This document shows, piece after piece, positions 7,187 to 61,228 of a stretch of DNA of 64,000 nt (within the stretch, counting starts at the first letter, position 1; every line of letters begins with the position of its first letter). Where the stretch lies: the NCBI GenBank assembly GCA_964016885.1, contig OZ024741.1, forward strand, positions 133,920,001 to 133,984,000. The letters run 5' to 3'. A program made the position numbers and the translations under genes. Under the pieces are notes generated by a model. It saw nothing but the letters and a program-made list of their open reading frames with translations. It made no database searches and was not told the DNA's origin. The DNA comes from Eledone cirrhosa. Lineage: Eukaryota.

Positions 7187-7261
<75 letters not shown>

Positions 7262-7325
7262 TTAGTTTCAAAAGATCCCGTTAAGGGTGAAAGCAGCGAT
7301 TCTTTGCTTAAACTTTAATCTTTTA

Positions 7326-7413
<88 letters not shown>

Positions 7414-11700: not shown

Positions 11701-11810
11701 ATAACCATTACATTTATACCACGTGACCTGAGGTCATTTAGAAGCTTTGCTTGCTTCCAAGTTGAGCCCAGGCCACGTGCATTCAAACATCCTACTCTTA
11801 ACACATCCAT
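8756..11810 (-). pseudogene. Tx1 ORF2 (APE endonuclease, reverse transcriptase, zf-RVT), frameshifted
   Basis: Fragments CLNARGL, SYLDRF, LDQSKAFDRVDH, RQGCPLS, AYADDVTV and CPRC...ETVAHALVQC spread over four frames. Confidence 0.92.
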
Positions 11811-11843
11811 GTGGGCGGCAAAGCCAAAGGAGAGTGTAGAGAC

Positions 11844-13538
11844 CTACCTTTCTGCTTCCCGGGGTTCGGGTCGCACGACTTCCATGGGGTCGGGGGTTTT
11901 GGGTGAAGGGGTGTCTTGTGGTGGTGTGGGGTCGTCAGTGTGTGGTGGGGTTGGGGTGTTTGGAGTTGTGTTGGTGAGGGGAAGGGGAGGGGGGAAGCTT
12001 TTTAGTAGGACGCGGTTTATGGGTTTGACAGAGGGTGGTCCTACGTCCTCAAAATCCTTTTTTAGTTTTTGGTAGAGGTTCATTGGGATCTTTATTAATT
12101 TTAAATGTGGGTAGTTTTCTGAAGAAACAAAGTTTACACCTTCGGTTTGTACCGAAGGATTATTGTTTATGAGTTCATTTAATTTATTATTGTTTCTGTT
12201 GATGTAAGTATAGTGTAATGTCTTTTTTTCGGATGGTGTGAGTGTTTCGAAGAGGGGAGGGGCAGGTTTGGTTTTGTTTGTTGCTGGAGGGGTGTTTTGT
12301 GTTTTGTTGGATTGTGTTGACATTTGGGTAGGGGTTGTTTGGCCTTGTGTGTTTTGCACATGTTTTCTTTTTTTCCTTTTAATCTGTCTGATGGACTCCG
12401 TTTCTTCCTCCGAATTCGTTGGGTTATCTTCAGTGTTGGAGGGAAGAGGTATGTTTGCTGGTAATGTTTCCGTGTTGGTTTTCTTTGTGGGGGAGATGGA
12501 TGTCACTATGTTAGACTGTGTTGTGTGTTGTGGCTGCGGTGGTTGTGTTGTTTTATTGAGTGAGGGGTTGGGTGGGACTGTATTTTGTTTTTGGGTAATG
12601 TGTTGTGACTGTTTGTGTTGTGGTGGTGGTGTAGTTTTACTGAGGGACGGGTTGGGTGGGACTGAGTTTTGTTGTTTGTTTATCTGTTGTGGTGGTGGTG
12701 GAGCTGGTGTTGGTAGCAGGGTTTTCTTTTTGTTGAGTTGGGGACAAGCCGCCTTCAGGTGCCCTCTGCCTGCACAGATATGACAGGACGGCCTTCTCCC
12801 CTCCACGCTAATGTTTATATACCCGTGGCCCTCTAATAGGATTCTGTCGGGTATTTGGGCGATGCGTTCAGGCTTCATTTGCACTACAAGTTCTATACCT
12901 GTTCCACTGAACGCATTGCCTGTGGTTTTCCCAATGGAAATCACGTTGTCATTCGCTGGATCGATGAAGCCAGCTATGAGCCAGCAGTAGTCCACATCTG
13001 GCATCATTGCATCCAGCCATATGCGCTGAGTTCTTTTACCCATATAAGATGGATAAAAGGTAAAATTTGTCGAACGAATCGGTGACAAAGCACATTTTTT
13101 TGCCGCCGATTCGTTCTTCATAATCGCTAGGCTTCCATACAGTCTGTCTCTTCTTATGAAAGTGGTTTCATTAAGTACTTCTGTAAGTACTGTTTTGATT
13201 TCTGTTTCTGTTGGCTGTTGAGGTTTTTTAGAAATGTTGTTGATGGTACGGAAAACGACCGTCCGACTTTCAATGTCTTTGGTGAGTTCTTGAGGCATTT
13301 TTACCGATAAAATACCATTTTCCCCTTCAGTTATGTATTGTTTGGCGTCTGTAATTATTTGTGCCACATCTGAAATATTTTCAGGTATATATGTCAAAGA
13401 TTTCTTTGTTGTTTGTGCAAATGAAATATTATTGGTGTTGACTTTGTTGTCTGCTTTGTTTTCTGCTATGATGTTGTTTTCAAATGTTATTTTTGGGTTT
13501 GTCGTGTCTTTGTTTGTGGTATTAATATTGTCATGCAA
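11844..13538 (-). CDS. Tx1 ORF1 nucleic-acid-binding protein (zinc knuckle)
   Basis: 564-aa ORF with CHICAGRGHLKAAC (CX2CX4HX4C), homologous to ORF1 at 44842-46041, directly upstream of ORF2. Confidence 0.85.
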   Translation of the reverse strand: MHDNINTTNKDTTNPKITFENNIIAENKADNKVNTNNISFAQTTKKSLTYIPENISDVAQIITDAKQYITEGENGILSVKMPQELTKDIESRTVVFRTINNISKKPQQPTETEIKTVLTEVLNETTFIRRDRLYGSLAIMKNESAAKKCALSPIRSTNFTFYPSYMGKRTQRIWLDAMMPDVDYCWLIAGFIDPANDNVISIGKTTGNAFSGTGIELVVQMKPERIAQIPDRILLEGHGYINISVEGRRPSCHICAGRGHLKAACPQLNKKKTLLPTPAPPPPQQINKQQNSVPPNPSLSKTTPPPQHKQSQHITQKQNTVPPNPSLNKTTQPPQPQHTTQSNIVTSISPTKKTNTETLPANIPLPSNTEDNPTNSEEETESIRQIKRKKRKHVQNTQGQTTPTQMSTQSNKTQNTPPATNKTKPAPPLFETLTPSEKKTLHYTYINRNNNKLNELINNNPSVQTEGVNFVSSENYPHLKLIKIPMNLYQKLKKDFEDVGPPSVKPINRVLLKSFPPPLPLTNTTPNTPTPPHTDDPTPPQDTPSPKTPDPMEVVRPEPREAER

Positions 13539-14204
13539 TTTTTCAAATTTCTTTTTTTCGTTGTTGGAATCAATGTCCAGATTTGTGTTTTCGTCATTTT
13601 TCTCCGCAGATTCGTCTGTTTTTATTTTATTTTTTCTTTCCTTCTCTATGACGTTAGTTGGGAAGGAAGGGGGGGGGGGACTAAAGTGTGCGAGCTTACA
13701 ACTCTTACCGCTGTCCCCCCACCACTATTTTCGTTAGCTTCGTTTAACATTTCTGTCAGACGATTGAAATTTTATGCCACAAAATTTTTTAAAACAGGTT
13801 TTTCACCCCTGGGAGGGGCGAAGATGAGCTGACCCACCGCCTGACAGTTCAGACGGGGGGTCAAGCTACACAATAGTATCAAAATTAAAATTGAACTTAC
13901 AAAATTTCCGCAATAAATTTGAACAAAACTTCTGCGCGAAGTGAATTACATCTACGCTGTAGAACAGACGACAGCTGATCTACTTATATAACCAACAATT
14001 TCTCTGTCTGTCTGTCCGACAGCGGAAACACGTGCTTAGAGAGAGAGTGAGAGTGAAAGAAAGAGACATACTACGAGAGGGGGATAGCGGGAGGGAGAGA
14101 GGGGGAGAGAGACAGTGAATAGACGCTAAAACACGTGCTACAGAAACATTACCTTCCCCTCTCCACTGACTTTGGTCACTGAGGCCGAGGGAATCGCGCT
14201 GAGC

Positions 14205-18050: not shown

Positions 18051-18268
18051 CAAAAGGGATATTTAATTTGTTGGTAATTCTTTCTTCTTCCTACACATAC
18101 ATATATATATATATCCTAATAATTATTTAAATCTACCTAGCGTCTAAAAATAACATTTTTTTCAGCCCTATACCTCAACCTCATTTGCATATTCATCTTA
18201 ATAATTTGAAATATATATAATAGAATAAATATGGTTTTATAAATATAGTTTCCATTTATTAATATCAT

Positions 18269-18466
<198 letters not shown>

Positions 18467-18486: not shown

Positions 18487-18560
18487 AAATCATTTATCTG
18501 CTTACGATTGTTTCTTCCAAACCGAGGTTTGGAGTCTTCGGAGCAATTATTCAGTGATTT
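18487..18560 (-). ncRNA. Hammerhead-like ribozyme at the PLE pLTR end (variant core)
   Basis: Minus strand TGCT-CCGAAGA-CTCCAAACC-TC-GGTTTGGAA-GAAAC-AATC-GTA-AGCA with distal AAATCA/TGATTT pairing; core is CCGA rather than CUGA. Confidence 0.6.
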
Positions 18561-20273
18561 TTAATATACTTGACCTCCTTTTCAACACAAGAGACATATA
18601 GAAACATATGTATATATTGACCCACAGTGGGTTGACATCCATTATAATAATATAGCATGGTAATTTACATACAAAGATTACAGTCATATTAAAGGACAAA
18701 ATTAAAGTTAAAATTAAAATTAAAAATTAAAATTAAAATAAAAGATTGGCATTCTACTAAGATAAAGCAAAAGGAAAGTTTGGAGTAGCCAGTGTATGCA
18801 ACAGTCACACGTGTGGCATGCACGCGTGTCCTATTTATACAAGATTATAGTGCGGCAGATTTTTACAAGTAAAACAAGCAGTCAAAGCAGGCAATCAAGA
18901 GCATCATGGGGGTGAACTGGTTAAGCATTATTTACACACACCTGTACGATATAGAAGCCCGTGTGTGGCGAAACACCAAAAATATCAAAAATATTACAAA
19001 TGAGAAGCAAAACAGCACCACTGTCCTCGTACACACCACCACTCTCACAATCCAGGAAACGCAATTTATAGACTACATGCCCATCTCACAATCCACGATG
19101 ATTCAACATTGGGTGCCTGGTTAACCCTGCTAGAACATCACAGCTTGTCGTTCTTTAATTCGATTCATAGATCAGGTTTTTTTGTTGTGGTAGATGTCAT
19201 CGTATTATATTCCGGAAGTGTGTGTGTGATTAAGGGGAGTTAATGCGTAAGGGGAGGTAAATAGCTGATTTCTATAGCTAAATTTATTATCCTAAAGTAC
19301 ATTAATGGTGTCTCAAATGAGTTCCCATCATATAAGGTTATAAACAATTTCTAAATTTAAGTATCTTATCTATAAATTACAGTGTAGTCTATCGAGAAGT
19401 ACTAAAGGTGTTCATATTAGGATGATTACCTTTTATCATAGAGTGCCCCCACCGAACATTCCACATGAAGAGTCAGATCTCCAAATCAATGATCTTTGTA
19501 AGTGTAGTCCACCCGCAGGACCTGGCAGGGTCTTATTAGAATCACTTCTATATATGACTCCTGGTAAGTTCTGGGTCATTGCATGACTGATTGCATGGCA
19601 AAGTTAAATATCACTAGGGTAGTCCAGAGATCAATTCTCACTTACAAAGACACTGATCTGACCATCAAGTCATACATGTATTTATAACTCATACATCACC
19701 TGTACATAATTCATTGCACTCAGCATATAGATTATATAGCTCTTTTATGTTAATAAATTAATTACTTAATCTTCCATTTATCCAATGATGCCACCACATA
19801 CACAAGACAATGTTAGCACAACCAATTCCGTGCTTAAAGTTTACATCGGTGTAATGTAGTCTAAGCAATTGAAGGCCAATATGCCAAAAGTAGAAGTACA
19901 TGGGGATATCTCCAAGGTAAAAGGTACTAGGAGGATGTCACTATTTGCGTTAAAGAGGATTAATGGGTGTGGAGATGAGGTGTAAGGTGTGCCCCTGATG
20001 ATTGCTGCTAGAGGTGGTGACGGGTTCAAGTCTGACATTGTTATATATTGGATTTAAAGTTTTGGAAGGAGTGTCGAAAGCGGTGTTGGCAAGACGCGAT
20101 CACTTCTGATTTTTTATTAAGGAGGTTATGGTTTGAGAAGATGATAGTATGGGTCTCTAGTAGACAGAGGTTACAAAATTTATTAGGTGGTTTGTACGAT
20201 GACGCGTTACCTATCACTTCCCATTTAAGTGTATATGGTTTATTTTTAGTTTTTAGATAGTGTATTAACGTTT

Positions 20274-21568
20274 TTGGACAAAAACACTAAAAACGTTAAC
20301 TTCCTGGACGCCACCCTCTACCTAGACTCAAAGATATATGCACCTTTCCACAAACCTAATGAAAAACTCATTTACGTAGATACCAAGTCTAACCACCCTA
20401 GATCTATATTAAACTCTATCTCTAAGGAGTATATAATAGAATCTCTAATCTATCCTATGACGTAAACATATTTAGCAAAAACTCGCAATATTATAATCAG
20501 GCATTAGCTAGATCAGGCCATAATATAGAGATCGAGTTCCTACCTACAAAAACACATAGCTACAACATTATTTCGCACAACATGTCCATGAGGAAATTTA
20601 GTAATAGGAATAGCAACCACACACACACTAATACGGAAGATGCAAACAAAAGTAACCCACACCACAGAAATTACCATAGTACCATAAAAGGAAACAACTC
20701 ACCAGACATAAAAAACAAAAATAGAAGAAGAAATAATACATTTTTCAACCCTCCTTTCAATCTAAATGTCTCTACCAACCTACCTAGGGCTTTCTTCTCA
20801 CTACTAGATAAAAACTTCCCATCCGGCCATAAGTACCATAGCCTTTTAAACAAAAATACTATTAAAATCTCCTACTCTACTACGCCTAACATAGCATACC
20901 ACATAGCTAGTAGCAATAAAAGAAAAATTAATTTTTACTTCCAGCAAACTAAATCACAACAGACGATAAACCTTCAAAATAACATTATAGCAACTAACCC
21001 TAATATCAATAGAAATAATAGTAATAACACTAGTGTAAACAATAACGCTGGAAACGTCAACCCACATAACCATAACCCTATAGCTACCATCCAGACTTCT
21101 ACACAACATAATAACCGGCAGACTAACACCCAGAATAATTGTAACTGTAGATCAAATAGAACCTGCCCTTTAGATAAAAAATGCTTAACCAAGGATATCA
21201 TATACTCATGCACAGTCACAACTAGCAACTCTTCTGAAACCTATATAGGCTCTACTTCAAACTGCTTCAAAACCAGATACAATTCGCACCTCCACTCTTT
21301 CAAAAAACACAGTCTAGCCAACCCCACTTCTCTATCTAGCTACATACACTATCTAAAAACTAAAAATAAACCATATACACTTAAATGGGAAGTGATAGGT
21401 AACGCGTCATCGTACAAACCACCTAATAAATTTTGTAACCTCTGTCTACTAGAGACCCATACTATCATCTTCTCAAACCATAACCTCCTTAATAAAAAAT
21501 CAGAAGTGATCGCGTCTTGCCAACACCGCTTCCGACACTCCTTCCAAAACTTTAAATCCAATATATAA
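20274..21568 (+). pseudogene. Penelope-like (Naiad/Neptune-type) RT C-terminus and GIY-YIG endonuclease
   Basis: VNFLDATL, PFHKPN, SNHP, FFNPPF, KISYS, CNC..CPL..CL, IIY..TYIG..FKTRY..H and CNLCLLE; one frameshift near 20430. Confidence 0.9.
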
Positions 21569-23303
21569 CAATGTCAGACTTGAACCCGTCACCACCTCTA
21601 GCAGCAATCATCAGGGGCACACCTTACACCTCATCTCCACACCCATTAATCCTCTTTAACGCAAATAGTGACATCCTCCTAGTACCTTTTACCTTGGAGA
21701 TATCCCCATGTACTTCTACTTTTGGTATATTGGCCTTCAATTGCTTAGACTACATTACACCAATGTAAACTTTAAGCACGGAATTGGTTGTGCTAACATT
21801 GTCTTGTGTATGTGGTGGCATCATTGGATAAATGGAAGATTAAGTAATTAATTTATTAACATAAAAGAGCTATATAATCTATATGCTGAGTGCAATGAAT
21901 TATGTACAGGTGATGTATGAGTTATAAATACATGTATGACTTGATGGTCAGATCAGTGTCTTTGTAAGTGAGAATTGATCTCTGGACTACCCTAGTGATA
22001 TTTAACTTTGCCATGCAATCAGTCATGCAATGACCCAGAACTTACCAGGAGTCATATATAGAAGTGATTCTAATAAGACCCTGCCAGGTCCTGCGGGTGG
22101 ACTACACTTACAAAGATCATTGATTTGGAGATCTGACTCTTCATGTGGAATGTTCGGTGGGGGCACTCTATGATAAAAGGTAATCATCCTAATATGAACA
22201 CCTTTAGTACTTCTCGATAGACTACACTGTAATTTATAGATAAGATACTTAAATTTAGAAATTGTTTATAACCTTATATGATGGGAACTCATTTGAGACA
22301 CCATTAATGTACTTTAGGATAATAAATTTAGCTATAGAAATCAGCTAGTTACCTCCCCTTACGCATTAACTCCCCTTAATCACACACACACTTCCGGAAT
22401 ATAATACGATGTCATCTCTCACAACAAAAAAACCTGATCTATGAATCGAATTAAAGAACGACAAGCTGTGATGTTCTAGCAGGGTTAACCAGGCACCCAA
22501 TGTTGAATCATCGTGGATTGTGAGATGGGCATGTAGTCTATAAATTGCGTTTCCTGGATTGTGAGAGTGGTGGTGTGTACGAGGACAGTGGTGCTGTTTT
22601 GCTTCTCATTTGTAATATTTTTGATATTTTTGGTGTTTCGCCACACACGGGCTTCTATATCGTACAGGTGTGTGTAAATAATGCTTAACCAGTTCACCCC
22701 CATGATGCTCTTGATTGCCTGCTTTGACTGCTTGTTTTACTTGTAAAAATCTGCCGCACTATAATCTTGTATAAATAGGACACGCGTGCATGCCACACGT
22801 GTGACTGTTGCATACACTGGCTACTCCAAACTTTCCTTTTGCTTTATCTTAGTAGAATGCCAATCTTTTATTTTAATTTTAATTTTTAATTTTAATTTTA
22901 ATTTTAACTTTAATTTTGTCCTTTAATATGACTGTAATCTTTGTATGTAAATTACCATGCTATATTATTATAATGGATGTCAACCCACTGTGGGTCAATA
23001 TATACATATGTTTCTATATGTCTCTTGTGTTGAAAAGGAGGTCAAGTATATTAAAAATCACCGAAGACTCCAAACCTCGGTTTGGAAGAAACAATCGTAA
23101 GCAGATAAATGATTTAAACAGAACTTTGTTTCATGTAATCTCTATATAACTGCTCTGTAAAACAACTGATGTTGTTACATTGAGCTATTTATCTTACTGG
23201 TAATAACATAGTAATAAATTACTGTCTTTCACTATTTAGGGTATAATATATATATAACTATAAAAGGTTTTGGTATATACATAACCATAAATAGTATCCT
23301 TAA

Positions 23304-28240: not shown

Positions 28241-28325
<85 letters not shown>

Positions 28326-28453
28326 AAAGTTATATTTAAAATGTTGGGTTAACAACGAGTAAATATTTATAACTGATATAAAAGCACTCAACAAGTATTT
28401 GGAGTATATTTATGATATTAAATAAATGGAAACTATATTTATAAAACCATATT

Positions 28454-28519
28454 TATTTCGTTATATATATTTCAGGGATATCATATTAACAATATGTTAT
28501 GCCTTCTTCAGACAAAATA
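28454..28519 (-). ncRNA. Minimal hammerhead ribozyme (mirror copy)
   Basis: Reverse complement of 28667-28732. Confidence 0.7.
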
Positions 28520-28666
28520 CAATATAAACAGTCTTATAAATAAATAGATACGACATACCTTTCAATCACCTTGCATTTGGGAGGTTGATTTGGCAGATCA
28601 ACCTCCCAAATGCAAGGTGATTGAAAGGTATGTCGTATCTATTTATTTATAAGACTGTTTATATTG

Positions 28667-28732
28667 TATTTTGTCTGAAGAAGGCATAACATATTGTTAA
28701 TATGATATCCCTGAAATATATATAACGAAATA
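28667..28732 (+). ncRNA. Minimal type-I hammerhead ribozyme
   Basis: TATTTTGT-CTGAAGA-[AGGCATAACATATT-GTT-AATATGATATCCCT]-GAAA-TATATA-TA-ACGAAATA; 8-bp helix I with one GU pair, long helix II with two mismatches, palindromic helix III. Confidence 0.72.
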
Positions 28733-28769
28733 AATATGGTTTTATAAATATAGTTTCCATTTATTTAAT

Positions 28770-28803
<34 letters not shown>

Positions 28804-29564: not shown

Positions 29565-32500
29565 CTAGCAGAAGAACCACCCCACCCCCCGGGCGGTTTT
29601 CCGCTAGCATATATAGCGTGCATATTGATATACTCAAATATATATGCACATAGATATGATACGTAAATTGACAATATGCACATAAACTGAACAAAGACTG
29701 TGTTACACTTACTTCTGTAATCAGTAAAGTAATCCCTGATACATTTTTAAAAAAGGCGATAATGGAGATGGAAAAGCGATGAAACTGTTGACGGAAAATG
29801 TTCATGAATCTTCACTTGAGAATGTCGATGGGAAACTTCAAGCAGTGAATTTGAAAATAGTTGCTGCTGGTATGAATGAATTAATTATATTTACCAATAT
29901 GAAGAGTTGACCTTCGCTATATTGTTGTTTTACTGTATTCACATATAGACTTCTTAAGTTTTTGTAGTGTCCCTTTTCTAGCAGTTAAAAAGAAACTGAA
30001 ATGCATTTCAACTAAAAGAGAGTGATGGCTGTCTCACATCACTGTAGAATTTCTTTGTAGACACAGTTGTCAGCAAACAGACCCCTTTCATTTAATATTT
30101 TTATATTTTCTTTTTTTGTAACTCGTGATAATGCAACATACATCTGACCATGTGAAAAGAATTATGTTGGTAGATATACAACTATCTTTTCAGATGTCTG
30201 CCCTTGTGCCTTGTTGCATGTAAGGGCAAAGGCTCGTTTGATAGGAAATTGCTTGCGAGTAAAGGTGAAAGGGAACTCAAGCTCTTGAGATACATGTGGT
30301 ATCCTTGGGATTAACAACATTGTTCCAGCATTGGGACCCAATGCCACTTTAGCTTCAATTACATAATTATGTAAACTGATGATGATGTAGCGTGTACCAT
30401 TGCAATGCTCGTTTAGAGGATCCAGATTTCTCAGAAGCATGATGCAACTGCTTTGCTTCAGTTTAAGTATCTGTATTGGGCAGCCTGATGGGGTAAGTTT
30501 GTTGATGAACTCAATTGGATATTGCAGTTCATTATCTACTGTATCAGAGCTTCTGTAGATTATTTCATGACCAGGGAACTTGTTGACCATGAACTCATTC
30601 ACCAATCTTGCTGCATCATTTGTTGGAGTGATAATGGCTCTATTTGCAAGCCATAGTGGATTTGTGCAGTTTCCTGGAAGATTTGTATACACAAAATCAC
30701 ACAGTCCAGACACATTGCCATATTCCAGACAAAGTTCATTTGGCAGAAGAATTGTGAATACACCTACAGTGGGTACAGTTGGAATGTTACCATTTCCCAC
30801 ATCAAGAAGGTAGTTTGCAAACTGTCTTTCATCAGAATCCTCTGCATTAATTAATTGTTGATTGGTTGTCATCTCCATGGTTTCCCCATAGTCCCAGAGA
30901 TAGGATCTCTTGATGGTTGCCTCAACTATTTGTGGTCTAGTACCATGACGTACAACTGGAAGAATTTGCTTCCAGTCACCAGATAGTAATACTGTTAGAC
31001 CACCAAATGGCTTTTCGCAATCTCGAACATCTTTGAAGCTCCTGTCAAGGCATTCAAAGATATCTCATCAATGATTAGCAGGTCAGCTTGCTGCATAAGT
31101 TTACCTGTGTCATCCCTCTTTGTGAAGAAGCAAGTTGATTCAGCAGTCACATTGAGAGGAATATTGCACTTGGAATGAAGAGTTCTACCTTTGTGAAGCA
31201 AAGTGGCTGCTATTCCAGATATGGCAGTGGCAAGTGCAATTTTCTTTCAGATCGGAGGTAGTCCAATAGGATGTTTATGACATAGGTCTTTCCTGTACCT
31301 GCACTTGCAGTCAAGCAGAACATTCTGCCTTCATTTTCATTTACAAAGGTGATTACTTTGTGAAATATAACCAGTTGCTCAGGATTCAATGTTGGCAGAA
31401 GTTCATTTATGTTTGCTTGCAGCTGGTGTGTATTGAAATCAGTTTCTGCCATAAGAACCCTGTTGATTTCTGGTATGGCACAAATAGTTGGGTCTGGCCG
31501 AGGAAGTCCATAGTTGGCATGAATGTCCAATCCATCATGTTGAAGTCTTTGTTGGATCTTCTGTAGTACATTCTGCACAGTTTGCATAGACATGACTTGC
31601 TCATGACGTTCATGCATGATATCCTCTGCAAGACAATTCTTCCCTTTCTCCCAGAACTGCAGAGGGTCATTTGGCATGCTGTACAATAAAATGGTACAGA
31701 AGATCTCTCGCAGCTGAAGACCAAGAGTAATGGATGAGGCCTCTTCCATAGCTTTGTCTTTTTCTCCATCCTCATCTAACAGACCAAGTTTCCTGCATGC
31801 TTCTTGGAATATTGGAAATTCAACTCCTTCAATTGTCCTCAAATCTTTATATGAAGTTGACCCAGCCTTGTGATGTAGGATCATTCTGAGGTAATATAAT
31901 TCAGATTGATGTCTACTGAGGGATACTGTTGGAATGCGTCCAAGAGATTCACTCATAAATTGTTGATCACCATCCAGATGTCCCTTTTTTCTTCTTTGCC
32001 ACTTTTTGTTTGTCCAAGTGAAATATTTAGGAATATCAATATACAATATGTTTTGTGCCAGTGGGTCTCTAATATTCAGTTGAAAATATTCCGTCAACTT
32101 AGTCATTGGCTGTTCCCTAGAAACAACACTTTCTTCCTACCCTCGCTCATACACGAACATTTGTTCCCCAGGTTAATGGCAAGGCAAATTTTCAACTGGC
32201 GGTTGTCGATGATTTAATGGAAATTTATCGATTCTCCAGAATGCTTCACTGCCTGAGTTGTACCGTGCATTGATATAGGTCTCAATCTCATATTGGACAT
32301 TGACACAATTTCCTTGATCATCCTTAATAGTGAAAGTGATCTTGTCTGATCCTTTTGTGATGTATTTATATAAGTACTTAACAGCCTTGACACTTTGGAC
32401 AACCCCACAATTGATGTGGCACTGATATCTCAATGAGAGGTAAGGGTTGTATGGAACAATCCAACAATTATCAACAGTAAATTCTTGACCTTTAAGTTGG

Positions 32501-33620
32501 ATTGTATGGGTGTGACCACTATGCTGTCTATCCCTTCTTCTATACTCCGGAAAGGAATTTTCGGCAACAAATGTGGTTTGTCTGAATGCCTTGGGATAAC
32601 TTTTTGAGAAATGGCGTTGTTGTCCTAGCCCTTCCATACATGAGCACATCATATTAGCTTGTCCACATGGGCCATGAATGTTGCAGGATGTGATGATCTT
32701 ATGCAGAATTGGATTGGTCTCTTTATCAGGAATCTCACAGTACACTACCTGATCAATGGCATCAGCAGTTTTGGGCTTGCTATCTTCAGCCATTATCAAC
32801 AGAATATGAGAATGAGTAAGGCCTCGTTTCTGCCACTCTATTGTAGCAGAATGAGCCACTTTCCTAGGACATTTTTTTTCAATGTTATCCATGATCTTGA
32901 AGACTCTTGCACAAATATCAGGACGGTCTCTAGGTTCTTCACCAGGGTGCAAACTATTTTTTATTTCATCCCAGTTAGGGTTAGTTGTTACCGTGATGAA
33001 ATAAGATGGCTTTCCCATGTGTCGAACCACAGTCATCGAATTCTGAAAGCACTCACTGTAGAAGCAAGGGAAACCATAGAATGAAGGAGGAAGAACAATT
33101 TTCCGGCCTGCATTTACTGAATCTCCTTCAGCCAGCGCATCATACAAACCCTCATACTTTTCAGCTCGTATCATGGTTTGATTGTTGCGGGCCCATTTGA
33201 GGCGACAATGTTCTATTTTTGCCTGGGCATCTACAGCAGATTGCTGCATCAGCCGCCTGCTCTTCATGATAATGTTACAGTCACCTTCCCTAACCTGAAA
33301 CCGATAACAGTAGAAATCAGTGAGTGTGAGTATTTGGTTATTGTCAATCCTTTTCAAACCAACCTGAAACCCATCATTCCCTCAAGGAAACAGTAGCACA
33401 TAATGCAGAGGATCATAAAAACGGTGCAACTGATGAATCCTCTGAAGACCACCATCTCTTTTATGAATGATGACATCCAAAAGACCTAATGTTGTATCAG
33501 GTTGAATAACAGCAATCTCAGATGCCATGGGGAGATTATATGTGCACATTATATGTGCAACACAGCAGCGTATTGGAAAAAATCCAAATCGCTTCATCTT
33601 TCTCTTTCACTCTCTCCCTC
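29565..33620 (-). mobile_element. Decayed autonomous Helitron (5' part missing or unclear)
   Basis: Rep and PIF1 helicase fragments; minus-strand 3' end is a hairpin followed by CTAG|T at 29565. Confidence 0.88.
30060..33540 (-). pseudogene. Helitron RepHel (HUH Rep plus PIF1 helicase), frameshifted
   Basis: YFITVTTNPNW, IEWQKRGLTHSHILL and KYLYKYITKG (Rep motifs 1-3); SAGTGKT, IIDEI, LLRNLD..CNGTR and FALTCNKAQGQT (helicase). Confidence 0.92.
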
Positions 33621-34345: not shown

Positions 34346-34493
34346 ACAAATAGTGAAAACAATGAAATTAAACAAAATACGGGTAATTCATACGGAGAAC
34401 TACGCCCCCCCCCCCCCCCAACGATCGTAAAATAATGAGTTTTACTATGAATTACCCGTATTTTGTTTAATTTCATTGTTTTCACTATTTGTT
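34346..34493. repeat. 47-bp inverted repeat at the 5' truncation of a Penelope fragment
   Basis: ACAAATAGTGAAAACAATGAAATTAAACAAAATACGGGTAATTCATA and its reverse complement. Confidence 0.85.
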
Positions 34494-36063
34494 TATTTAG
34501 ACTCATCGAAAAACACTTTTTTCCACTACAACACCGCTACCACAACATAATCAACAAAAACACTATCAAGCTCTCCTACAGCACCACACCTAACTTCGCA
34601 CAAAACATCGTCTCCTCAAACAACAAAAAACTCAACCCCTATGGAAGAAACAACCTAGACATTAGTGGAGAGCCGACCAGGAGGTGTAACTGCCCTGATA
34701 GATCTACGTTCCCGCTCAACAACAGATGCCGAGAACGTAACGTGATCTACCAGTGCAACGTGAGGACGGACACCTCCAACAAAGCTTATATAGGATTAAC
34801 CGCTTGTGACTTTTAGACCCGGCTCTACCAATACCGACATACGTTCCGAGATCCGGTCCGGCGACATGCCACCAAACTTTCGGGCCACTTCTGGGACGTC
34901 CAAGATAATAATATAACTTACAATCTTACTTGGAGCTTACTTCCAGAGCTAATTCTTACACGGGAGGACGCTGACCGTGTAACTTATGCTCGGAGGAAAC
35001 ATTACAAATACTGTTTACGAAGGTTCAACTCCTAAACAAAAAAGACGAACTGGTAACTGCATGCAAACACAGATTTCGTAAGACATACCTCGCCCTCAAA
35101 CCCCTTAACGATCCGGATGGGTAGACAAGGGCTGAAACACCCTACTTACCGAATAAGATAGGGGAAACCCCAGCTTACATAGGTAGATGTACCTCTTTTC
35201 TTTTCCTCTATGTTTTCTTCTTCCTTTTGTCTCCTCCTATCATTTCCTTCCACCACCGATCTTCTTCCTCGTTCATTTTTTTCCCCTTTCGCCTACCCCG
35301 AGGCAGCCCATCGGGCCTCTGTAGCCTCAGTACCTTAAAGATAGCATTGGCCGATTACGCTATACTAACTAATCATAGCAGCTGTGTTAGACCCTAGAGA
35401 TTTTGTATTACTTTTTACTACCCAATTCTACAATTTCAATAATTCTTATTTAGTATCTTCTATTCTCAACTCATTCTATAGCATTGGCCGAAAAAGCAAC
35501 ACCAAATAATATAGCAGCTGTTTTAGACTATAGTTTTTGTTTTTTGTCACTTCTCACTTTCCATTTTTATATTTTTATATATCTTTCTCTTATTTTTTTA
35601 TTGTCTCCTAATCTCATTTGATTTACCCATTCTATAACGTCCCTCCTCTATTTTCTCCAGAAACCTTTTTTCGCCTACCTCCTCTGACCTACTTTCATAC
35701 ACATTCCTTAGAATTTGCCGCATAGATCTCACTTTCAACGCTTGACCGGCTTCACCCACTCCCTCATCGTTCTACAGGCAAGTTCAACCACCCCCACCTC
35801 CCACCCACTGCCATGATAGACTTATTTGTGTTTACCAATCCTCTTGACAACTACAATCTTCCCATATAAGGAAGTACCCCTTGAAAAGTTCGGCTATTTA
35901 TTTACCAGATTAAAAATTCTAATTTAGTCCAGAAATACCCGTCGAAAGGGCTTGGGCTCTGCCGTCGGAGTCATACTTTCTCCTATTACCCATTCTACTA
36001 CCCTAAGTATTGAGTACTCTGGTGCGTTATGGTCCATCTGGTTCCTTACCACAACTCCTTCGT

Positions 36064-38044: not shown

Positions 38045-40859
38045 AAAGGGCGATTAGAATGGAGTCCATTATGTTTAGTAAGGCGTTAGCAACAGAGAAA
38101 AATAGAGCAAAGGGAGAACTAGTTAGAAAATTAGATGAGGCGCTTAGTAAAGGCATCGCGACCGACGTGCTTGCGGCCAAATTAGCCCTCAACCAATTCT
38201 TCAACGCAAAGCACGAAGGCTGCGTTGTCAGAGCTAGGACGCGTGCTCTCAGAAACGAGGGTACGAAAGCCGTTCAATGGGCCCGAGTGGCGGAGGCGCG
38301 TTGTGGCAACAAAGCCACGATCCGGTCTTTGGTGGACCACGACGGGCGAATACTACTCGATCCCGGGTAAATGTGTGAAGCATTTCAGCGACACTTTTCC
38401 CAGCTGTTCGGGGGTAGCGGCGGGCCGGATCGCGGGATAGACTTTAGTGCCTACCTCGACGGACTGCCGGGGCTCTTGGCCACTGAAGCGGAGTGTTGCG
38501 AAAAGCCGATAACAGCCACTGAAGTAGGGGAGGCAATGACTGGCTGCACAAGGGGTAAATCGCCTGGTTTGGATGGTCTGCCCTACGAACTTTACGTACA
38601 TATGCCAGACTTGTTCGTAGACCTCTTGGTGGACGTCTACTGCAACCGGCAACAGAACGGGAGAATTCCCAGCTCTGTGAGCCGAGGAGCTGTGGCGTTG
38701 CTGAGAAAGGATCCGAACAAGGGGGATAACATAGATAATTTCAGGCCCATAACTCTGCTAAACACAGAGTTCAAGATTTTGGCCAAGGTGCTAGCAAAGA
38801 GGTTGGCGCTTGTCGCTGGTGGTCTGGTGGGAGAGGCACAGGCATGCGCCATCCGAGACAGATCCATCCATGACAACCTCCACCTCATGCGATGGAGAGG
38901 GTAGCTAGGGAACCTGGCACGGGTGGGTCCTTGATCAATTTAGATCAGTCGAAAGCTTTCGATAGGGTCGACCATCGTTATCTGGCGGCAGTCCTGAGGG
39001 CGGCCGGCTTTGGGCTCGTCTTCAGAGGCTGGATCGCTGCCGTGCACAGCGACATCTGCTCTGTGGTGAGAGTGAACGGTTACCTTTCGGAACCGTTCAA
39101 CATCATGCGCTCGGTCCGCCAAGGATGTCTCCTCTTGTCTCTGTTGTACGTATTTACACTCGAGCCATTACTGCAGAAACTGGAGACGTTGAGGGGTTCC
39201 GCGCGAACTGGGATGCGGAAGATCCGTATCAGCATATGCAGACGATGTCACCGTAGTGGTGTCGAACGCCAAACACATCGAGGCGATCGGCACTACACTA
39301 AGTGAATACGAGGCGGTGACAGGAGCAATGATCAACCAGGAAAAGTCAGTGGGCCTGCAGCTCGGCACCTGGAGAGGCAGGTCCATGCCGTCCAATAGCG
39401 TTGTCGGGCGCTGGATGGACGGACCGGTTAAATTGCTAGGAGTCTGGTTTGGTCCAGACCTCCAGACGGACAAAAACTGGGACGAGGTGACGAGCAAGGT
39501 GGCTTCTCTCACCCAGAAATGAGCAGAGAGGAAATTATACCTGAAAGGTCGAGCGTAGGTGGCGAATGCGTACATCGCCTACGTCATCTACTACCGCCTG
39601 ACAGTCGTGCCTTGTCCTAAGCCTCGCCTGACTGCGCTGGAACGTTTGCTCTTCGCTTTTTGTGGAAGGGACGCGTTCCGATGGTCAGGTGTCCATCTGC
39701 TGTCAACACCCGCTACGTGGAGGGCTGGGAATGCCGTGGCTGATGATGCACAGTCACGCGTTCAGGCTACGATATCTCCACCTCTTCCTCGACGGTGATC
39801 AGATGTGGTTGCCGTTTGCTAGACGCGTGTTTCCCCAGCTCGTTTCCTTGACGGAACTGCAGTCCTGGGTCAAGCGAAGACCGAGAGGGAGTGCTTGGAG
39901 ACTGGAATGTCTTCAGGCGCTCACAGCCCTCGACCAGTCAAGCAATGCGATCGGTGGAAACTCCACCTCGGCGTTCTATAGAGGATTAGTGGAGGGGAAG
40001 AGCGACGACGTACTTGGAGAGACTCTGGGCGTCGACGAAAATCAACTAGCCAATCTTTTCGGAAGGACTTTCGGGCCAGGGCCTATGGACAACTTCCAGA
40101 AATCCCTGGCCTGGCAGTGCTACCGAGGAGCTTTGCCAGTTCGGGATAAGCTCTACAGGCATGGAAGTGCCGTCAGCCTGGCATGTCCAAGATGCGCGCA
40201 GAGCGACGAAACCGTCCTGCACGCACTCGTCCAGTGTCCGCGCATTGCTGACTTGTGGGTTTATGCCGAACACCTGCCGTCGCGTGTAGGACGGATTCGG
40301 CTATCAGCTGAGTCCATCGTGAGGATTGCCCCGCCCTCTTCCTTTAGCCGAGAATGGCAGGCAGTTATTATCTATCTGGTGGCCATGGCAAAAGAGATAG
40401 TATGGTGGACGCGTTTGAAAGGGCTGAAGACGAGCACTTACCTCTTCGGTGATGCCCTGATTAACTTTTTCAAATTACATTTGAATAGGAAAATCAGGGA
40501 AGTGCTCTCTTCCCAGCATTTGTTAAAAGATGGGTGAGAGAGGCAAGAATGGCCCGAGTGAATGGGCCTACTCTGAGTATGTGCCTGTAAATTAAAGGTG
40601 GAAAACTGGGAGAGGGCACTTGCCCTGGTAGTCAGGGTCACCGTGGCTTTTTTAATGGGTTTTCTCCACGAATGTCCCTCGGAAGTCTCCCCCCCCCCCT
40701 ATTGGGGAATTTTTCATTGTATCTTGTTTTGTTACATCCTCTGTTTTTGTTTTTTTTACACGCAGAAATGCCCATTTGTACCGTCCTATATTGTCCTGTA
40801 TTGTCCTGTATTGTCCTTAATGTCTTACTTTGTGTAAATCCTTGTGGTTAATAAAGAAA
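38045..40859 (+). mobile_element. 5'-truncated L1-Tx1 LINE (copy B), ORF2 with stops
   Basis: KSPGLDGLP, RPITLLN, KAFDRVDH, YADD and CPRC..H..C; close paralog of 46925-49743; flanked by ATT repeats. Confidence 0.92.
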
Positions 40860-40869
40860 GCATTATTAC

Positions 40870-43390
40870 AGACACGTCCAGATGCTCGGCACCGCTCTCA
40901 AGGAATACGAAGCGGTGACAGGAGCAACTATAAACCAGGAAAAGTCGGTGAGCTTGCAGCTTGGCACCTGGAGAGGCAAGTCCATGCCGTCCGACAGCGT
41001 CGTGGGCGTTGAACGGACAGACCGGTTAAATTGCTCGGGGTCTGGTGTTGACAGCAGATGGATCGTCTAACCATGGGAGCACGTCCCTTCCACAAAAAGC
41101 GGAAGAGTAGGCGCTCCATTTTGGTCAGAGTTGGGCGGGAGCAAGGTACTACGGTCAGGCATTAGCAGATGACGGACGCGATGTACGCGTTCGCCCCTCC
41201 GCCCGACCTTTCAGAGACAGCCTCCTCTCGGCCCATTTCTGAGTGAGAGAGGCCACCCAGCTCGTCACCTCGTTCCAGTTTTTCTCCATCTGGCGGTCCG
41301 GACCGAATCAGACCCCAAGCAATTTAACCGGTCCTTCCGTCCATCGCTCCACGACGCTGTCGGATGGCATAGACTTGCCACTCCAGGTGCCGAGTTGTAA
41401 GCCCACCGACTATTCCTGGTTTATCTTTGCTCCTGTCACCGCTTCGTATTCCTTGAGAGCGGTGCCGAGCATCTGGACGTATTTGGTACTCGACACCACC
41501 ACAGTGACATCGTCGGCGTAAGCTGAGACGGATCTCCCGCATCCCAGTTCGCGTGGGACCCCCCTCATCGTCTCCAATTTGTGCAGTAACGATTCGAGGG
41601 CCAATACGTACAAGAGGGACGAGAGGGGACAACCCAGGCGGACCGAGCGCATGATGCTGAACGGCTGTGACAGATGACCGTTCACCTTCACAGCTGAGCA
41701 GATGTCGCTATGCATCGCAGCGATCCAACCTCTGAAAATGGGCCCGAAACCGACCGCCTCGAGGACCACCGCCAGGTACCGATGGTCGACCCTATCAAGT
41801 GCCTTAGATCGATCCAAGTTGATCAGGGCCCCACCCGCGCCAGGTTCCTTAACTACCCCCTCTATGATGTATCGCATGAGGTGGAGGTTGTCGTGGATTG
41901 ATCTGCCTGGAATGGCGCATGCCTGCGCCTCTCCCACCAGATCACCGACAACAAGCGCCAATCTCCTTCCTAACACCTTGGCCAAAATTTTGAAATCTGC
42001 GTTTAACAGAGTTATGGGCCTGAAGTTGTCTATCTTGTCCCCCTTGTTCGGGTCTTTTCTCAACAGCGCCACCGCTCCACAGCTCACAAAACTGGGAATG
42101 CTCCCGTTATGTCAGTTGCAGTAGCCAGTTGCAGTAGACATCTGCCAAGAGGTCGCCGAACAAGTCTGACATGTATGCATAAAGCTCGTAGAGCAGACTA
42201 TCCAAACCTGGCGATTTACCCCTCGTGCAGTCAGACATGGCTTCCCGTATTTCATCTGCTGTTATCAACTTTTCGCAATACTGCACTGCGGTCGTCGAGA
42301 GCCGCGGCAGTCACTCGAGGTATGCATTGAAGTTCATACTCCAATCCGGCCCGCCGCCACTCCCAAACAGTTGAGCAAAGTACTGCCGAAAAGCCTCACA
42401 CATCTGCTCGGGTTCGAGCAATATGCGCCCGTTTTGGTCAGGCAAGGACCGAATTATGGATTTGTTGTCACGTCGCGCCTCTACCACTCGGTGTCTCAGA
42501 GCACGCCATCTAGCTCTGACAACGCATCCTTCGTGCTTTGCATTGAAGAATTGGTCGAGTGCAAATCTGACCGTTGCAATTTTTTTCCCGCAGTAAAACG
42601 GGACTAACGTTATGTCATCACTCCGTAGGGCCCTCAATGAGTGCGATTTTTCTTCCTGGGTGGTAGCAAAAAGGACGTCCACGGTAGCATATTTCTTGCC
42701 TCGGGTGATGTGGGTTTTCCGTGCCCACACAGTTCCCAAGGCAATTGTGCGGTATGACACTGTGCGTCGCTCTTGTTCCTTCAGGAAGTCGGTTGGTGGT
42801 TTCAAGGACACTAAAAATTCAGTTCTGGTTACCATGTGTGTTGCGACCGCCATCTCCTCTTCTGTGACCAGGACTGTTTCTACGTTGCGAGCCACCTATG
42901 CAAAAGAAATGGTCCCTTTTTCAGTGGCATCATTGATGCCGCCGCTACTGCTGCTACTGGTCTTGTTGTTGGTGCTGTTGCTGTTGCTATTGCTACAAAT
43001 AGTGTTGTTGCTCTTATCACAGTTGCAGTTGGTTGTGTCTTTGGTGCCGCCGTTGTTGTTGTTGTTGTCGGTGCAATTTGTATTGTTGCTGTTGCTGTTG
43101 GTGTTGTTGCTATTTGTTTTCGTGTTGTTGGTGTTAATATTGTTGTTGCATTTGTTCTGTTGTCTGTATTTTGGTTGTCGCTGTTATTATTGTGGTTGGT
43201 GTGGTCACTTTTTTCAAAATTAGTGTTCTCAGTGTTGTTGTCATTGCTGTCTTTGTTCACGTTGTTTGTGGTGCTGTTTGTTGTGTCAATGTCTCTGTTC
43301 GCCGTAACCCTCTTTCTCATCTTTTACGTCGTTGTCACACGACAGCAGACATATCGCTGGGGGGCGTGGCTCAGCCATGTTTTTTTTTTC
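40870..43390 (-). mobile_element. Rearranged L1-Tx1 LINE (copy C): internal deletion and inverted 3' segment
   Basis: Minus-strand ORF1 5' part (43320-42566) is joined to ORF2 RT (42565-41046, AYADDVTV); 40870-41046 is a plus-strand duplicate of an RT segment. Confidence 0.85.
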
Positions 43391-43994
43391 GATAATTTTT
43401 AAATGTAAAATGTTCAAATATTATATATATTTCGTCTTGTGTTATATATATTTGTGAGTCCTGGAGTTTGGTTATGTATCTATCTGCGTGCTTTTTTTAT
43501 CATCCCTAGAGCACCTATAATTATTATAGCTATTGTTTCTATCTTCAACATCCACATCCGGGTTATTTCTATCTATAGATGCTTATGTTTAGATAGTTTC
43601 TCCATTTCCTTGGTAGGAATGTTGTCGTCAGTTGGGATTGATACATCAATCAGAAGACATTTTTCTTTCTAGTTTTTGATTATTATTATTATTATTGAAT
43701 GCCATGGTTGACGGAGGCTCGGCACTGTAAGGTATTGTAAATTTTGACCGCTATAACAATTGTAAATTGTTTAAAACTTTAACCAACTTGTAGACAAAAA
43801 CACCCTCCTCCTCGTGAGAGGGGTCTTTCTGCCCGTTATTTGGCCCTTCGGGGTTAAATAACCGCTTATTGGGGTTTTGTGCCCAATATTTATTTTAAAC
43901 AAAAAAACAACATGGCTACAAAAAGAATTTTCATAGGTCACTCCCACTCATTCAGTCTTCTTCTTCCTCAATCGTCACTACATCAGAGAGAAGA

Positions 43995-46041
43995 TTGTCT
44001 CTCTCCCTCCCTTCTCTAAATGTGTCTCTCTCCCTCCCTTCTCTTTCGCAAGCGACGCCAGAAAAGAAAAATCACGTGCAAAGCGAGCAAGATTTCTCCA
44101 CGACGACGACGACAACGACGAAAAAGGTGTGCGGGAAATACGAAAACCCATTGCATTCGTCTGACGTCAGGAATAATAGCTGTAGCAGCCGTAATAACAG
44201 CATCAACAGTGACAAGGAAAACAACAGTAGCAGCCGCAACAGCATCAGCAGCAGCATAAACAACAACAGCATTAGCAACAACAACAACAGCAGCAGATGC
44301 AACAACAACAACAACCACAGCAACAGCGGCGGAGGCAGTAGTCGTAGTACCTGCAGCAACAACAAAAGTAACAGCAGCTCTGACGACAACAACAACAACA
44401 ACAGCAGCAAAGAAAAACTAATCTCGTTTGCAGGTATCGCAAAGAACCTGGAAACCATCCTCATAACAAATGAGGAATTAGAGGAAGCGAAGAAGATGGT
44501 GACAAAAACTGGACACCGAGCAATCTGCAAGGCAGCCGAAAATTTTTTCAAAACCCAACAACACTGTACGGCCACGTACCGTACAGTAAGTACAAAATCC
44601 CGTAGGGTTGAAAGAGCTACAGAGGCGCAAATACAAAAAGCCTTGGTGTTTGTGTGGCAGCGGAAAACGCACATCACCCGAGGCAAGAAATATGCCACCG
44701 TAGACGTACTTTTTGCCACACCCCAGGAGGCAAAGGCTCAATCCTTAGTGACCCTAAGGAGCGAGGAAATGGTGTTGGTGCCCTCCTACTGCGGGCAAAA
44801 TATTGTGAGGGTCAAACTGACCCACGTCCCCCCCCCCCGGGATGGTCCCTTCTTGGCTGGTCGCGTCTGTCCTCGTCGGAATCGAGGACAAAACAACTGT
44901 ACTGCAAGTACAGAAAAAAGTAAGAGAAGATTGGGTCGGCACCTCCATTGAGATGTTAATCCAAACCAACCAGGAGTGCATCGAAGCTATCCCGGATGTG
45001 ATAGACTTCGATAACGGCACTCAACTGCCCATAAGTGTTGAGGGCAAACGCCCAAAATGCTTTCGCTGTGGATCGAAGACTCACCTCAGGGCCTTCTGCA
45101 ACGAGAAGACCCTGAGAAAGGAGAAAACCCTCCTCCTTCCGAAACCGGCTCCACGGCTACCAGCAACAGGACAAGCGGCAACCAGGAACGATAGGTCCGT
45201 GGCACCCATACCCACGCCACGTAAATCAAAAACAGCAGCAGCAGTGGAAGTATTAACAACAACAACAGCAATACCAAATGCAGCTGCAACAGAGACTCCA
45301 GTGCAAACATCACCAACAACAAGTGAAAGAGTGGAGCTGGTACCCCTCCCCGACCTCACAGAATCAGACATGGAGTGTGAGGTGGGAGAGGAATGGCAAA
45401 AGGTCGTAAGAAGGCACAAACGCAGAAGCAGCGCATCGTCGCCTTTGAAAAGGGAGGAAAGAAATGAAAAAAGGGTAAACGCTACTGCAAAGAGACTCAC
45501 AGCAGCAACACCACCAACACCATCACCACCCACACTAGCACCACCATCACCACCGGCGACAACCCCACCGCCAACAACAACAACACCTTCAACACCACCA
45601 CCACAAGCACCAACATCGCAAACACAACAACAAAACACACACACCCAGCAACAACGACAAGAAAATAGCAGAACCACACCCCACCCCCAGAAAAACAAAT
45701 GCACGGCAATAAATACACACAACAAGAAACTAATGACTTACATAATTGAACACACAGACATTTCACAACACGACTACATAATACCAGCATCAATCAAAAC
45801 GCCAACTAACATAAGACTGCTAAAAATAGCACAGAAACAATACACAAACATTAAAACGAAATTCCCCAACGCAGTTGGTGATTTCAGAGACCTAGGAGGG
45901 ACTATCAACCGAAGAGTATATTCGGACATACTCATAGAAGAGCCGACGACCAGCCGAAGGGACGATTCAACGGTCCCTTCACCAGACGATCAAGTAAAAA
46001 GGGATAGAAAAACCATCCCTCCTCTACGAAAAGTACGGTAA
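43995..46041 (+). pseudogene. Tx1 ORF1 (CCHC knuckle), frameshift in poly-C at ~44830
   Basis: CFRCGSKTHLRAFC; Ser/Asn-rich N-terminus and Pro/Thr-rich C-terminal region. Confidence 0.85.
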
Positions 46042-46076
46042 GTGGTCTTTCCCATCTTTTCCACTCTATTTTAAAC

Positions 46077-49000: not shown

Positions 49001-49494
49001 TGGCCTGGCAGTGCTACCGAGGAGCCTTGCCAGTTCGGGATAAACTCTACAGGCATGGGGGTGCCGTCAGCCGGGCATGTCCGAGATGCGCGCAGGGCGA
49101 CGAAACCGTCCTGCACGCACTCGTCCAGTGTCCGAAAATTGCTGACTTGTGGGTTTATGTCGAACACCTGCTGTCGCGTGTAGGACGGATCCGGCTATCA
49201 TCTGAGTCCATCGTGAGGATTGCCCCGCCCTCTTCCTTTAGCCGGGAAGGGCAGGCAGTTTTTATCTGTCTGGTGGCCATGGCGAAAGAGATAGTATGGT
49301 GGACACGTTTGAAAGGGCTGAAGACGAGCACTTACCTCTTCTGTGATGCCCTGATTGACTTTTTCAAATTACATTTGAAAAGGAAAATCAGAGTAGAGAG
49401 GGAAGTGCTCTCTTCCCAGCATTTTGTTGAAAGATGGGTGAGAGAAGCAAGAATGGCCCGAGTGAATTGGCTTACTCTGAGTACGTATCTGTAA
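46077..49494 (+). pseudogene. Tx1 ORF2 (APE, RT, zf-RVT) with stops and frameshifts
   Basis: SINARGL, VGDWN, SYLDRV, QGCPLS, AYADDVTV and CPRC..ETVLHALVQC. Confidence 0.93.
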
Positions 49495-60915: not shown

Positions 60916-61228
60916 GAAAAAGTGTATGAAGTGTGGATGTGCCAGTTTATTCGAAAATAAGCAAAATGAATAATGCAATTTTTTTACAATTTCTTTCGAC
61001 GTTAAAACAGGACTATGTTTCACAACTATCCTCGATAGACAAAAAAAAGCTACTTAATAGCAGAAATCAAAATTGGCTTGGAAAAGACAATGGTTGTCTT
61101 CATATATCGATTAGACGGGGAAATAATTATAATCTTCACTTCCTAAAAAAAAAAATAAACCTCACTCGTTCAGAGACTTCACAATCGTTTCGACTATTAT
61201 CCAAGTGCATTATTGATGCTTTATTTAA

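What the first reader, a model, noticed from the sequence alone, without database searches (positions are those of the whole stretch)
28411..28775. Perfect 365-bp palindrome carrying mirror-image hammerhead ribozymes
Seen: two 179-bp arms with no mismatch found by eye and a 7-nt loop. Each arm holds a complete type-I hammerhead (CTGAAGA...GAAA-TATATA-TA, 8-bp helix I, long helix II), one per strand. The tail after the ribozyme (AAATATGGTTTTATAAATATAGTTTCCATTTA) recurs at ~18210-18268, so the module is dispersed. Known: minimal hammerheads with palindromic helix III occur in Penelope pLTRs and retrozymes and can cleave as dimers. Inference: this may be a non-coding, PLE-mobilised ribozyme element. 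A transcript from either strand would form a viroid-like rod whose upstream antisense arm could block its own ribozyme, or a long dsRNA substrate for ADAR or Dicer.
Basis: partly seen in the sequence, partly recalled or inferred. Interest (0 to 1): 0.8.

Follow-up and report, generated by a model that had tools for sequence, protein, structure and literature searches.

The report
Twin-primed stub of Penelope retrotransposon
This palindrome is a short back-to-back insertion of the ribozyme-like end of a jumping gene (a Penelope-like retrotransposon) whose end has hundreds of identical copies in this genome; it likely formed when the gene's RNA was copied twice from two fixed start points, which suggests a direct test of how these elements insert.

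Summary
The palindrome is real (179-bp arms, no mismatch, 7-nt centre) but is not a stand-alone ribozyme element. It is a 5'-truncated, head-to-head insertion of the pLTR of a young, protein-coding Hydra-clade Penelope-like element (PLE) into (TA)n. The true insertion is 28322-28775, because the left arm carries an extra 89-nt tail. The hammerhead is the normal pLTR ribozyme motif: 377 exact copies, covariation across families, palindromic helix III, activity untested. This architecture is published. Two points I did not find in print. (1) 43 of 46 head-to-head junctions pair one tail-less end with one tailed end, none pairs two tail-less ends, and two other families repeat this (17 of 19; 8 of 9). 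(2) A stem-loop, RCTC-loop-GAGYRCT, sits a few bases 3' of each of the two ends, in four families here and by eye in 4 of 6 published Hydra consensi. Likely mechanism: both target strands are nicked, reverse transcription starts once beside each stem-loop, both copies run off the RNA 5' end, and the two are joined head to head.

The parts
28322..28775 (.). Whole insertion: two 5'-truncated pLTR copies joined head to head, between (TA)n tracts
28322..28596 (-). Tailed (long-end) arm, 275 nt, one mismatch to a natural full-length copy
28322..28410 (-).
28383..28405 (-). Stem-loop motif A (ACTC-12 nt-GAGTGCT), 5 nt 3' of the short end; candidate RT-binding and initiation signal
28454..28519 (-). 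Type-I hammerhead motif, minus-strand copy; predicted cut between 28462 and 28461
   Evidence: mirror of the plus-strand copy
28590..28596 (-). 7-nt centre: the 5'-most bases of the tailed arm, at the family's 5'-stop hot spot (candidate transcription start)
28597..28775 (+). Tail-less (short-end) arm, 179 nt
28667..28732 (+). Type-I hammerhead motif: helix I 28667-28674/28725-28732, core 28675-28681, helix II 28682-28712, GAAA 28713-28716, palindromic UAUAUA, predicted cut after 28724
28244..28321 (.). (TA)n target tract, left
28776..28800 (.). (TA)n target tract, right
18207..18271 (+). Short-end fragment of a sister subfamily, starting at GAAA, followed by (TA)n
   Evidence: matches the ends of L129 and L141

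Best explanation
The palindrome is a 5'-truncated, head-to-head insertion of the pLTR of a Hydra-clade Penelope-like retrotransposon into a (TA)n tract, likely made by twin priming from two fixed start sites on the element's RNA. Shown: identity with the pLTR of a protein-coding element, (TA)n flanks, two fixed 3' ends 89 nt apart with one used by each arm, a stem-loop repeated just 3' of each end, and a shared 5' stop about 85 nt upstream of the hammerhead core. Inferred: the RT-endonuclease, probably as a dimer, binds both stem-loops and nicks both target strands. Each nick primes one cDNA. Both cDNAs run to the RNA 5' end (a pLTR promoter) and are joined head to head through short self-complementary patches. 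The hammerhead is a passenger of the pLTR, predicted to cut only as a dimer in tandem transcripts. The stub is likely a dead end.
For: Arm 100% identical at 47 of 52 listed places (40 of 836 candidates scored); 377 exact hammerhead copies, control 0. L033 is pLTR-ORF-pLTR with a 3747-bp unit; intact 737-aa ORF in L144 with RWR, DKT, CxCx5C, CxxC and CxH. 30 of 66 loci have exact hammerheads head to head, 0 tail to tail. 43 of 46 junctions are short+long, 1 long+long, 0 short+short, 2 unclassed; 17 of 19 and 8 of 9 in two other families. The tail-less arm reaches further upstream in 22 of 43, and the tailed arm is tail only in 6 of 43 (two are a duplicate pair), so neither arm is simply a copy of the other. 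The two arms share 13 variants seen in no other sampled arm, at 5 loci, which points to one source. Repeated motif: score 43 versus shuffle maximum 40 in 2000; double motif at 712 places, control 0; unsearched 5' half present in 41 of 44 junctions versus 3.9 in shuffles. PAc nicks and extends both strands, is predicted dimeric, and its two RT start sites bound the tail (PMC11167929).
Against: No biochemical or RNA data for this family. In vitro, PAc showed no strand difference in start site, so the one-of-each rule is not yet explained there. Loci were chosen by an exact hammerhead match, and family 2 and 3 pairs were picked as close pairs, which enriches short palindromes. 21 of 66 loci show no second arm. 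Junctions fall on short self-complementary patches and some hold templated insertions (L080, L081, L083, L102), which also fits snap-back synthesis. Shared variants also fit fold-back or gene conversion. No read or contig spans the centre. Pfam has no hit for the ORF, so clade assignment rests on motifs and by-eye comparison.
Confidence: 0.7

Rival explanations
1. Same element, different mechanism: one cDNA, or an antisense RNA, self-primes at a short palindrome to make a hairpin, and the endonuclease then resolves the intermediate at two sites to leave a one-sided tail. The repeated motif would be an endonuclease site.
For: This is the published reading: self-priming (PMC3846280 Discussion) and endonuclease-mediated resolution for the tail (PMC8557442). 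Junctions sit on self-complementary patches and 12 of 43 pairs stop within 5 nt of each other. Arms share locus-specific variants.
Against: Arms are not nested: the tail-less arm is longer upstream in 22 of 43 and the tailed arm is tail only in 6 of 43. Motif loop length varies from 11 to 20 nt, which fits a single-strand hairpin better than a double-strand site. PAc tail ends are RT start sites.
Confidence: 0.22
2. The palindrome is itself a non-autonomous, retrozyme-like unit that is transcribed as a rod and re-mobilised whole.
For: Several loci have nearly the same size and junction. Animal retrozymes derive from PLE pLTRs (bioRxiv 10.64898/2026.07.22.740005).
Against: The same junction occurs with the tail on either arm (window versus L066; L055 versus L106 and L108), and arm lengths range from about 40 nt to 3.7 kb. 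Retrozymes are direct tandem repeats. The stub lacks stem-loop B, and each strand has only one sense hammerhead, base-paired to its antisense.
Confidence: 0.05
3. Assembly or library fold-back artefact.
For: Perfect arms; no independent read spans the centre.
Against: The structure is asymmetric with a fixed biological tail, has different unique flanks beyond the (TA)n tracts, recurs at 45 of 66 loci with varied junctions, and older pairs have diverged arms.
Confidence: 0.02

Closest known systems
Hydra clade of endonuclease-containing Penelope-like elements (Craig et al. 2021, PMC8557442)
   Same: Single ORF, RT then C-terminal GIY-YIG-type domain; RW[KR], DKT, CxCx5C, CxxC and CxH motifs; (TA)n target; hammerhead in the pLTR; inverted 5'-truncated copy. 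By eye the protein lines up with Hydra-1_Obim.
   Different: Unit is 3.7 kb versus under 3 kb for most. Tail is 89 nt versus the 30-40 bp given for PLEs. Helix III reads GAAA-UAUAUA-UA, not the GAAAC...GU of the listed Hydra ribozymes. Very abundant here: 50,131 matches to one hammerhead pattern, control 1.
Penelope/Poseidon pLTR inverted repeats with optional tail (Adineta vaga, PMC3846280; PAc, PMC11167929)
   Same: Head-to-head palindromic junctions, tail on one side, AT-rich targets, two RT start sites bounding the tail.
   Different: Different clade. In the parts I read, neither paper reports a one-of-each count or a duplicated stem-loop beside each start site.
L1 twin priming (5' inversions; recalled, not read)
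   Same: Two primed cDNAs on opposite target strands joined by microhomology.
   Different: Here both start sites are fixed and marked by a repeated motif, and the two cDNAs often overlap, giving palindromes.
Non-LTR retrozymes and minimal dimeric PLE hammerheads (PMC4209133; bioRxiv 10.64898/2026.07.22.740005)
   Same: Type-I hammerhead with short palindromic helix III, predicted to act as a dimer.
   Different: Retrozymes are direct tandem arrays; this is an inverted stub of an autonomous element.

Membership tests
Endonuclease-containing PLE | Sequence is the pLTR of an element with one RT + GIY-YIG ORF | tested here: met
   atlas look-alikes at 0.96-0.99 include GIY-YIG and RVT_1 clusters; no Pfam hit
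Endonuclease-containing PLE | Partial tandem and inverted 5'-truncated copies, tail on one side | tested here: met
Endonuclease-containing PLE | Target-site duplication | tested here: inconclusive
   both flanks are (TA)n
Hydra clade | RWK-like motif, DKT, CxCx5C linker, CxxC and CxH, no CCHH, C-terminal endonuclease | tested here: met
   read from the translation against the definition in PMC8557442
Hydra clade | Insertion into (TA)n | tested here: met
   nearly all free ends listed run into TA repeats
Hydra clade | RT phylogeny groups with Hydra | not tested
   reference proteins compared by eye only
Type-I hammerhead | CUGANGA, GAAA and UH core with helices I and II, supported by covariation | tested here: met
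   31 distinct motifs: helix I positions 1-8 paired in 30-31 of 31; G-C/A-U exchanges at helix I position 2 and helix II positions 2, 3 and 5
Type-I hammerhead | Rfam hammerhead model match | tested here: not met
Dimer-type PLE hammerhead | Palindromic helix III | tested here: met
   94 of 99 hexamers self-complementary. Most were fetched by patterns that fixed the hexamer; TGCGCA, TGATCA and TGTGCG first appeared unprompted
Type-I hammerhead | Self-cleavage | not testable with these tools
   needs an in vitro assay
Non-LTR retrozyme | Direct tandem units, each with a hammerhead, no ORF | tested here: not met
   arms are inverted and belong to a coding element

The most novel reading that the evidence does not exclude
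The PLE 'tail' and 'inverted pLTR' are the footprint of a programmed twin-priming reaction. A Hydra-wide RNA stem-loop (RCYC-loop-GRGYRCT), duplicated at the pLTR/5'UTR junction, docks two RT protomers on one RNA, and each protomer primes from one strand of a doubly nicked (TA)n target. This would be a retrotransposon that writes both flanks of its insertion itself and makes palindromes by design.
Probability: 0.5. Interest if true: 0.7.

Novelty: new member of a known kind. Interest (0 to 1): 0.42.

Why it matters
The locus itself is an ordinary by-product of a known element class. Its value is as a clean record of how PLEs insert, which the papers read here call unresolved. It names a small cis-element and two start sites that can be mutated in an existing type of in vitro assay. 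It also explains how this genome gains many short perfect palindromes that could yield double-stranded RNA, and it shows about 50,000 hammerhead motifs of a type that Rfam did not detect at this locus.

Tried and rejected
Rfam: no hammerhead hit, only microRNA-model matches to the hairpin below gathering score. DNA-transposon/MITE reading: rejected because the arms are the 3' part of an RT element and the ends are unequal. Naiad: rejected because the endonuclease is C-terminal and the motif is DKT. Simple fold-back of one cDNA: rejected as sole mechanism because arms are not nested. An apparent family-2 hot spot came from a yardstick that was itself inverted; redone. Expression: no RNA holder listed. 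Read laying: RAD-seq reads and short contigs of other samples cover both arms, mostly with diverged copies, and none spans the centre, so it is inconclusive. Role of ribozyme-cut RNA as template: no 5' end within 5 nt of the cut site among 86, but loci were selected for an intact hammerhead, so this is not a test. Exact text search of the Craig supplement for my two heptamers found no Hydra hit; the published motif reads GAGCACT and was seen by eye. Earlier findings: none returned. Literature searches for a prior twin-priming model or the motif (text finds 75, 76) found none; subscription journals are not covered.

Full report
Observation. The arms 28411-28589 and 28597-28775 are 179 bp with no mismatch around a 7-nt centre. 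Each arm carries a type-I hammerhead core with an 8-bp helix I, a 12-bp interrupted helix II and GAAA-UAUAUA-UA; the cut is predicted after 28724. Rfam does not detect it. The fragment at 18207-18271 exists but lacks the CUGANGA core.

What it is. The arm matches the window's own genome at 100% over its full length in 47 of 52 listed places (40 of 836 candidates scored), and the 55-nt ribozyme occurs 377 times exactly, control 0. Locus L033 shows the parent: pLTR-ORF-pLTR with a 3747-bp unit. L144 holds an unbroken 737-aa ORF, and many of the 82 scored copies have open frames of about 745 codons. The protein has RWR, DKT, YRDD, CxCx5C, CxxC and CxH, the diagnostic set for the Hydra clade of Penelope-like elements (PMC8557442 passages), and by eye it lines up with Hydra-1_Obim (supplement). 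Pfam gives no hit; atlas look-alikes carry GIY-YIG and RT families. The left arm continues 89 nt to 28322, the PLE tail, and the 7-nt centre is the next 7 bases of the element. So the insertion is 28322-28775, between (TA)n tracts. An inverted 5'-truncated pLTR with a one-sided tail is published PLE anatomy (PMC8557442 passages; PMC3846280 passages and Discussion).

Ribozyme. Among 31 distinct motifs, helix I positions 1-8 pair in 30-31 of 31, with G-C/A-U exchanges in helices I and II and a conserved C-C mismatch. The helix III hexamer is self-complementary in 94 of 99 motifs; most were fetched with patterns that fixed it, but TGCGCA, TGATCA and TGTGCG appeared unprompted in other families. 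Closing helix III in the monomer costs 2.9 kcal/mol, while the intermolecular duplex gives -3.2. This fits the dimer-type PLE hammerheads, which show low activity in vitro (PMC4209133 passages). One pattern finds 50,131 such motifs in the genome, control 1. On either strand of the palindrome only one hammerhead is sense and it is paired to its antisense (MFE -283.7 kcal/mol), so cleavage here is unlikely. Activity is untested.

Insertion statistics. The first 100 of 377 exact matches fall in 66 loci; 30 have a head-to-head exact pair and none tail to tail. Mapping all 66 on a natural copy gives 46 head-to-head junctions at 45 loci; 21 loci show no second arm. 43 of 46 pair a tail-less end with a tailed end, 1 has two tailed ends, 0 two tail-less ends, 2 are unclassed. 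Random choice of end would give at most half mixed pairs. Two other families repeat this: 17 of 19 pairs (20 loci) and 8 of 9 pairs (20 loci, 11 single or no hit), with no like-with-like pair; those loci were largely picked as close pairs. The tail-less arm reaches further upstream in 22 of 43, the tailed arm in 9, and 12 stop within 5 nt of each other; in 6 of 43 (two are a duplicate pair) the tailed arm is tail only. Arms share 31 variants and differ at 56 over 9670 bases; 13 shared variants at 5 loci occur in no other sampled arm. 24 of 86 5' ends lie in an 11-nt window about 85 nt upstream of CUGA; in the other families 15 of 38 lie at -66 to -71 and 8 of 18 at -62 to -67. These stops fall on pyrimidine-A steps, in family 3 on TCACT with TATAAATA about 30 nt upstream, which suggests transcription starts (inference; initiator consensus recalled, TCACT also named).

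Repeated stem-loop. The sequence after the short end resembles that after the long end (score 43, shuffle mean 22.7, 0 of 2000 reach it): ACTC-loop-GAGTGCT and GCTC-loop-GAGCGCT, a compensatory A-U/G-C change. The double motif occurs 712 times, control 0. The pattern was built from two families, but it also recovered two more whose N-terminal proteins are 37-57% identical and whose spacers differ. The unsearched 5' half of motif A is present in 41 of 44 junctions, against 3.9 in shuffles, with loops of 11-20 nt. Insertion ends lie within about 10 nt upstream of the motifs in families 1-3 at both ends and in family 4 at the short end; TA ambiguity blurs exact offsets. By eye, 4 of the 6 consensi in File S7 of PMC8557442 carry it: twice at the 5' end of Hydra-1_Ajap, once near the 3' end of Hydra-2_Amil and Hydra-2_Ajap, and as GCCC-GGGCACT at nt 7 of Hydra-1_Crog; Hydra-1_Obim has only a loose match and Hydra-1_Amil none (supplement parts 52-53).

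Mechanism. PAc nicks and extends both strands, is predicted to be a dimer, starts internally at two sites that bound the tail, and needs RNA 3' of those sites (PMC11167929, parts 1-2 of 4). Together with the counts above, the simplest model is twin priming: one cDNA starts beside each stem-loop on the same RNA, each from a different target strand. Both run to the RNA 5' end and are joined head to head at short self-complementary patches. When the template is the first pLTR of a transcript, the product is this near-perfect stub. Identity, ends, motif and counts are shown; binding, priming and the transcription start are inferred. The published self-priming and endonuclease-resolution model explains the palindromic junctions but not the non-nested arms.

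Limits. No RNA run was listed and no read spans the centre. No tree was built. L1 twin priming is recalled, not read. Of the retrozyme preprint I read part 1 of 5; its supplements are closed, and the supplements of PMC11167929, PMC3846280 and PMC4209133 were not opened and could bear on the novelty of the motif. Searches and text finds showed no earlier report of the duplicated motif or of a one-of-each count.

Verdict. A new member of a known kind (identity about 0.97; twin-priming mechanism about 0.7). Interest 0.42: the locus is ordinary PLE debris, but its family gives a sharp, testable handle on how PLE tails and inverted repeats form.

Noticed in passing
window 18550-23065: A larger head-to-head insertion of another Hydra-type family: 1568-nt arms at 99% flank an RT-thumb/endonuclease fragment (32% to P0002).
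   Followed up: partly
window 26573 (minus strand): Hammerhead motif of another family with the same GAAA-TATATA-TA end.
   Followed up: no
window 34451-34954 and 57666-59513: Decayed Hydra-type ORF fragments.
   Followed up: no
window 61058-62903 (minus strand): Five tandem SNORD12-like C/D snoRNA copies; one reaches the Rfam gathering score (43.9 versus 43).
   Followed up: no
window 30162-33381 (minus strand): Helitron Rep and PIF1 helicase fragments.
   Followed up: partly
window 8756-13724, 38353-49494, 56137-57165: LINE-type RT copies in both orientations (RVT_1 confirmed for 9055-10677) and a mariner transposase.
   Followed up: partly
window 7259-7332; L007, L033, L041: End of another repeat next to (TA)n, often beside these insertions, with a hammerhead-like but imperfect core (CAGAAGA, short GC stem, GAAA). 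Not identified.
   Followed up: no
L097, L104 (yardstick positions 7-8): Two near-full-length arms stop exactly at the 5' edge of stem-loop B; unexplained.
   Followed up: no
L016/L081, G000:C2:133899267-133899644: A second palindrome of the same family about 21 kb before the window start, with the same junction start plus a short templated insertion.
   Followed up: partly
L010, L041, L042, L154: Hydra families insert into the (TA)n beside each other's ends, building nested clusters.
   Followed up: no
L033 near 5150 and other ORF copies: A poly-C run between RT and endonuclease parts breaks the frame in L033 and L036; many copies have frames that end near this point.
   Followed up: no
window 28625-28634: A splice-donor-like AG|GTATGT lies upstream of the hammerhead; PLE 5'UTR introns are known, but no matching acceptor was established.
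   Followed up: no
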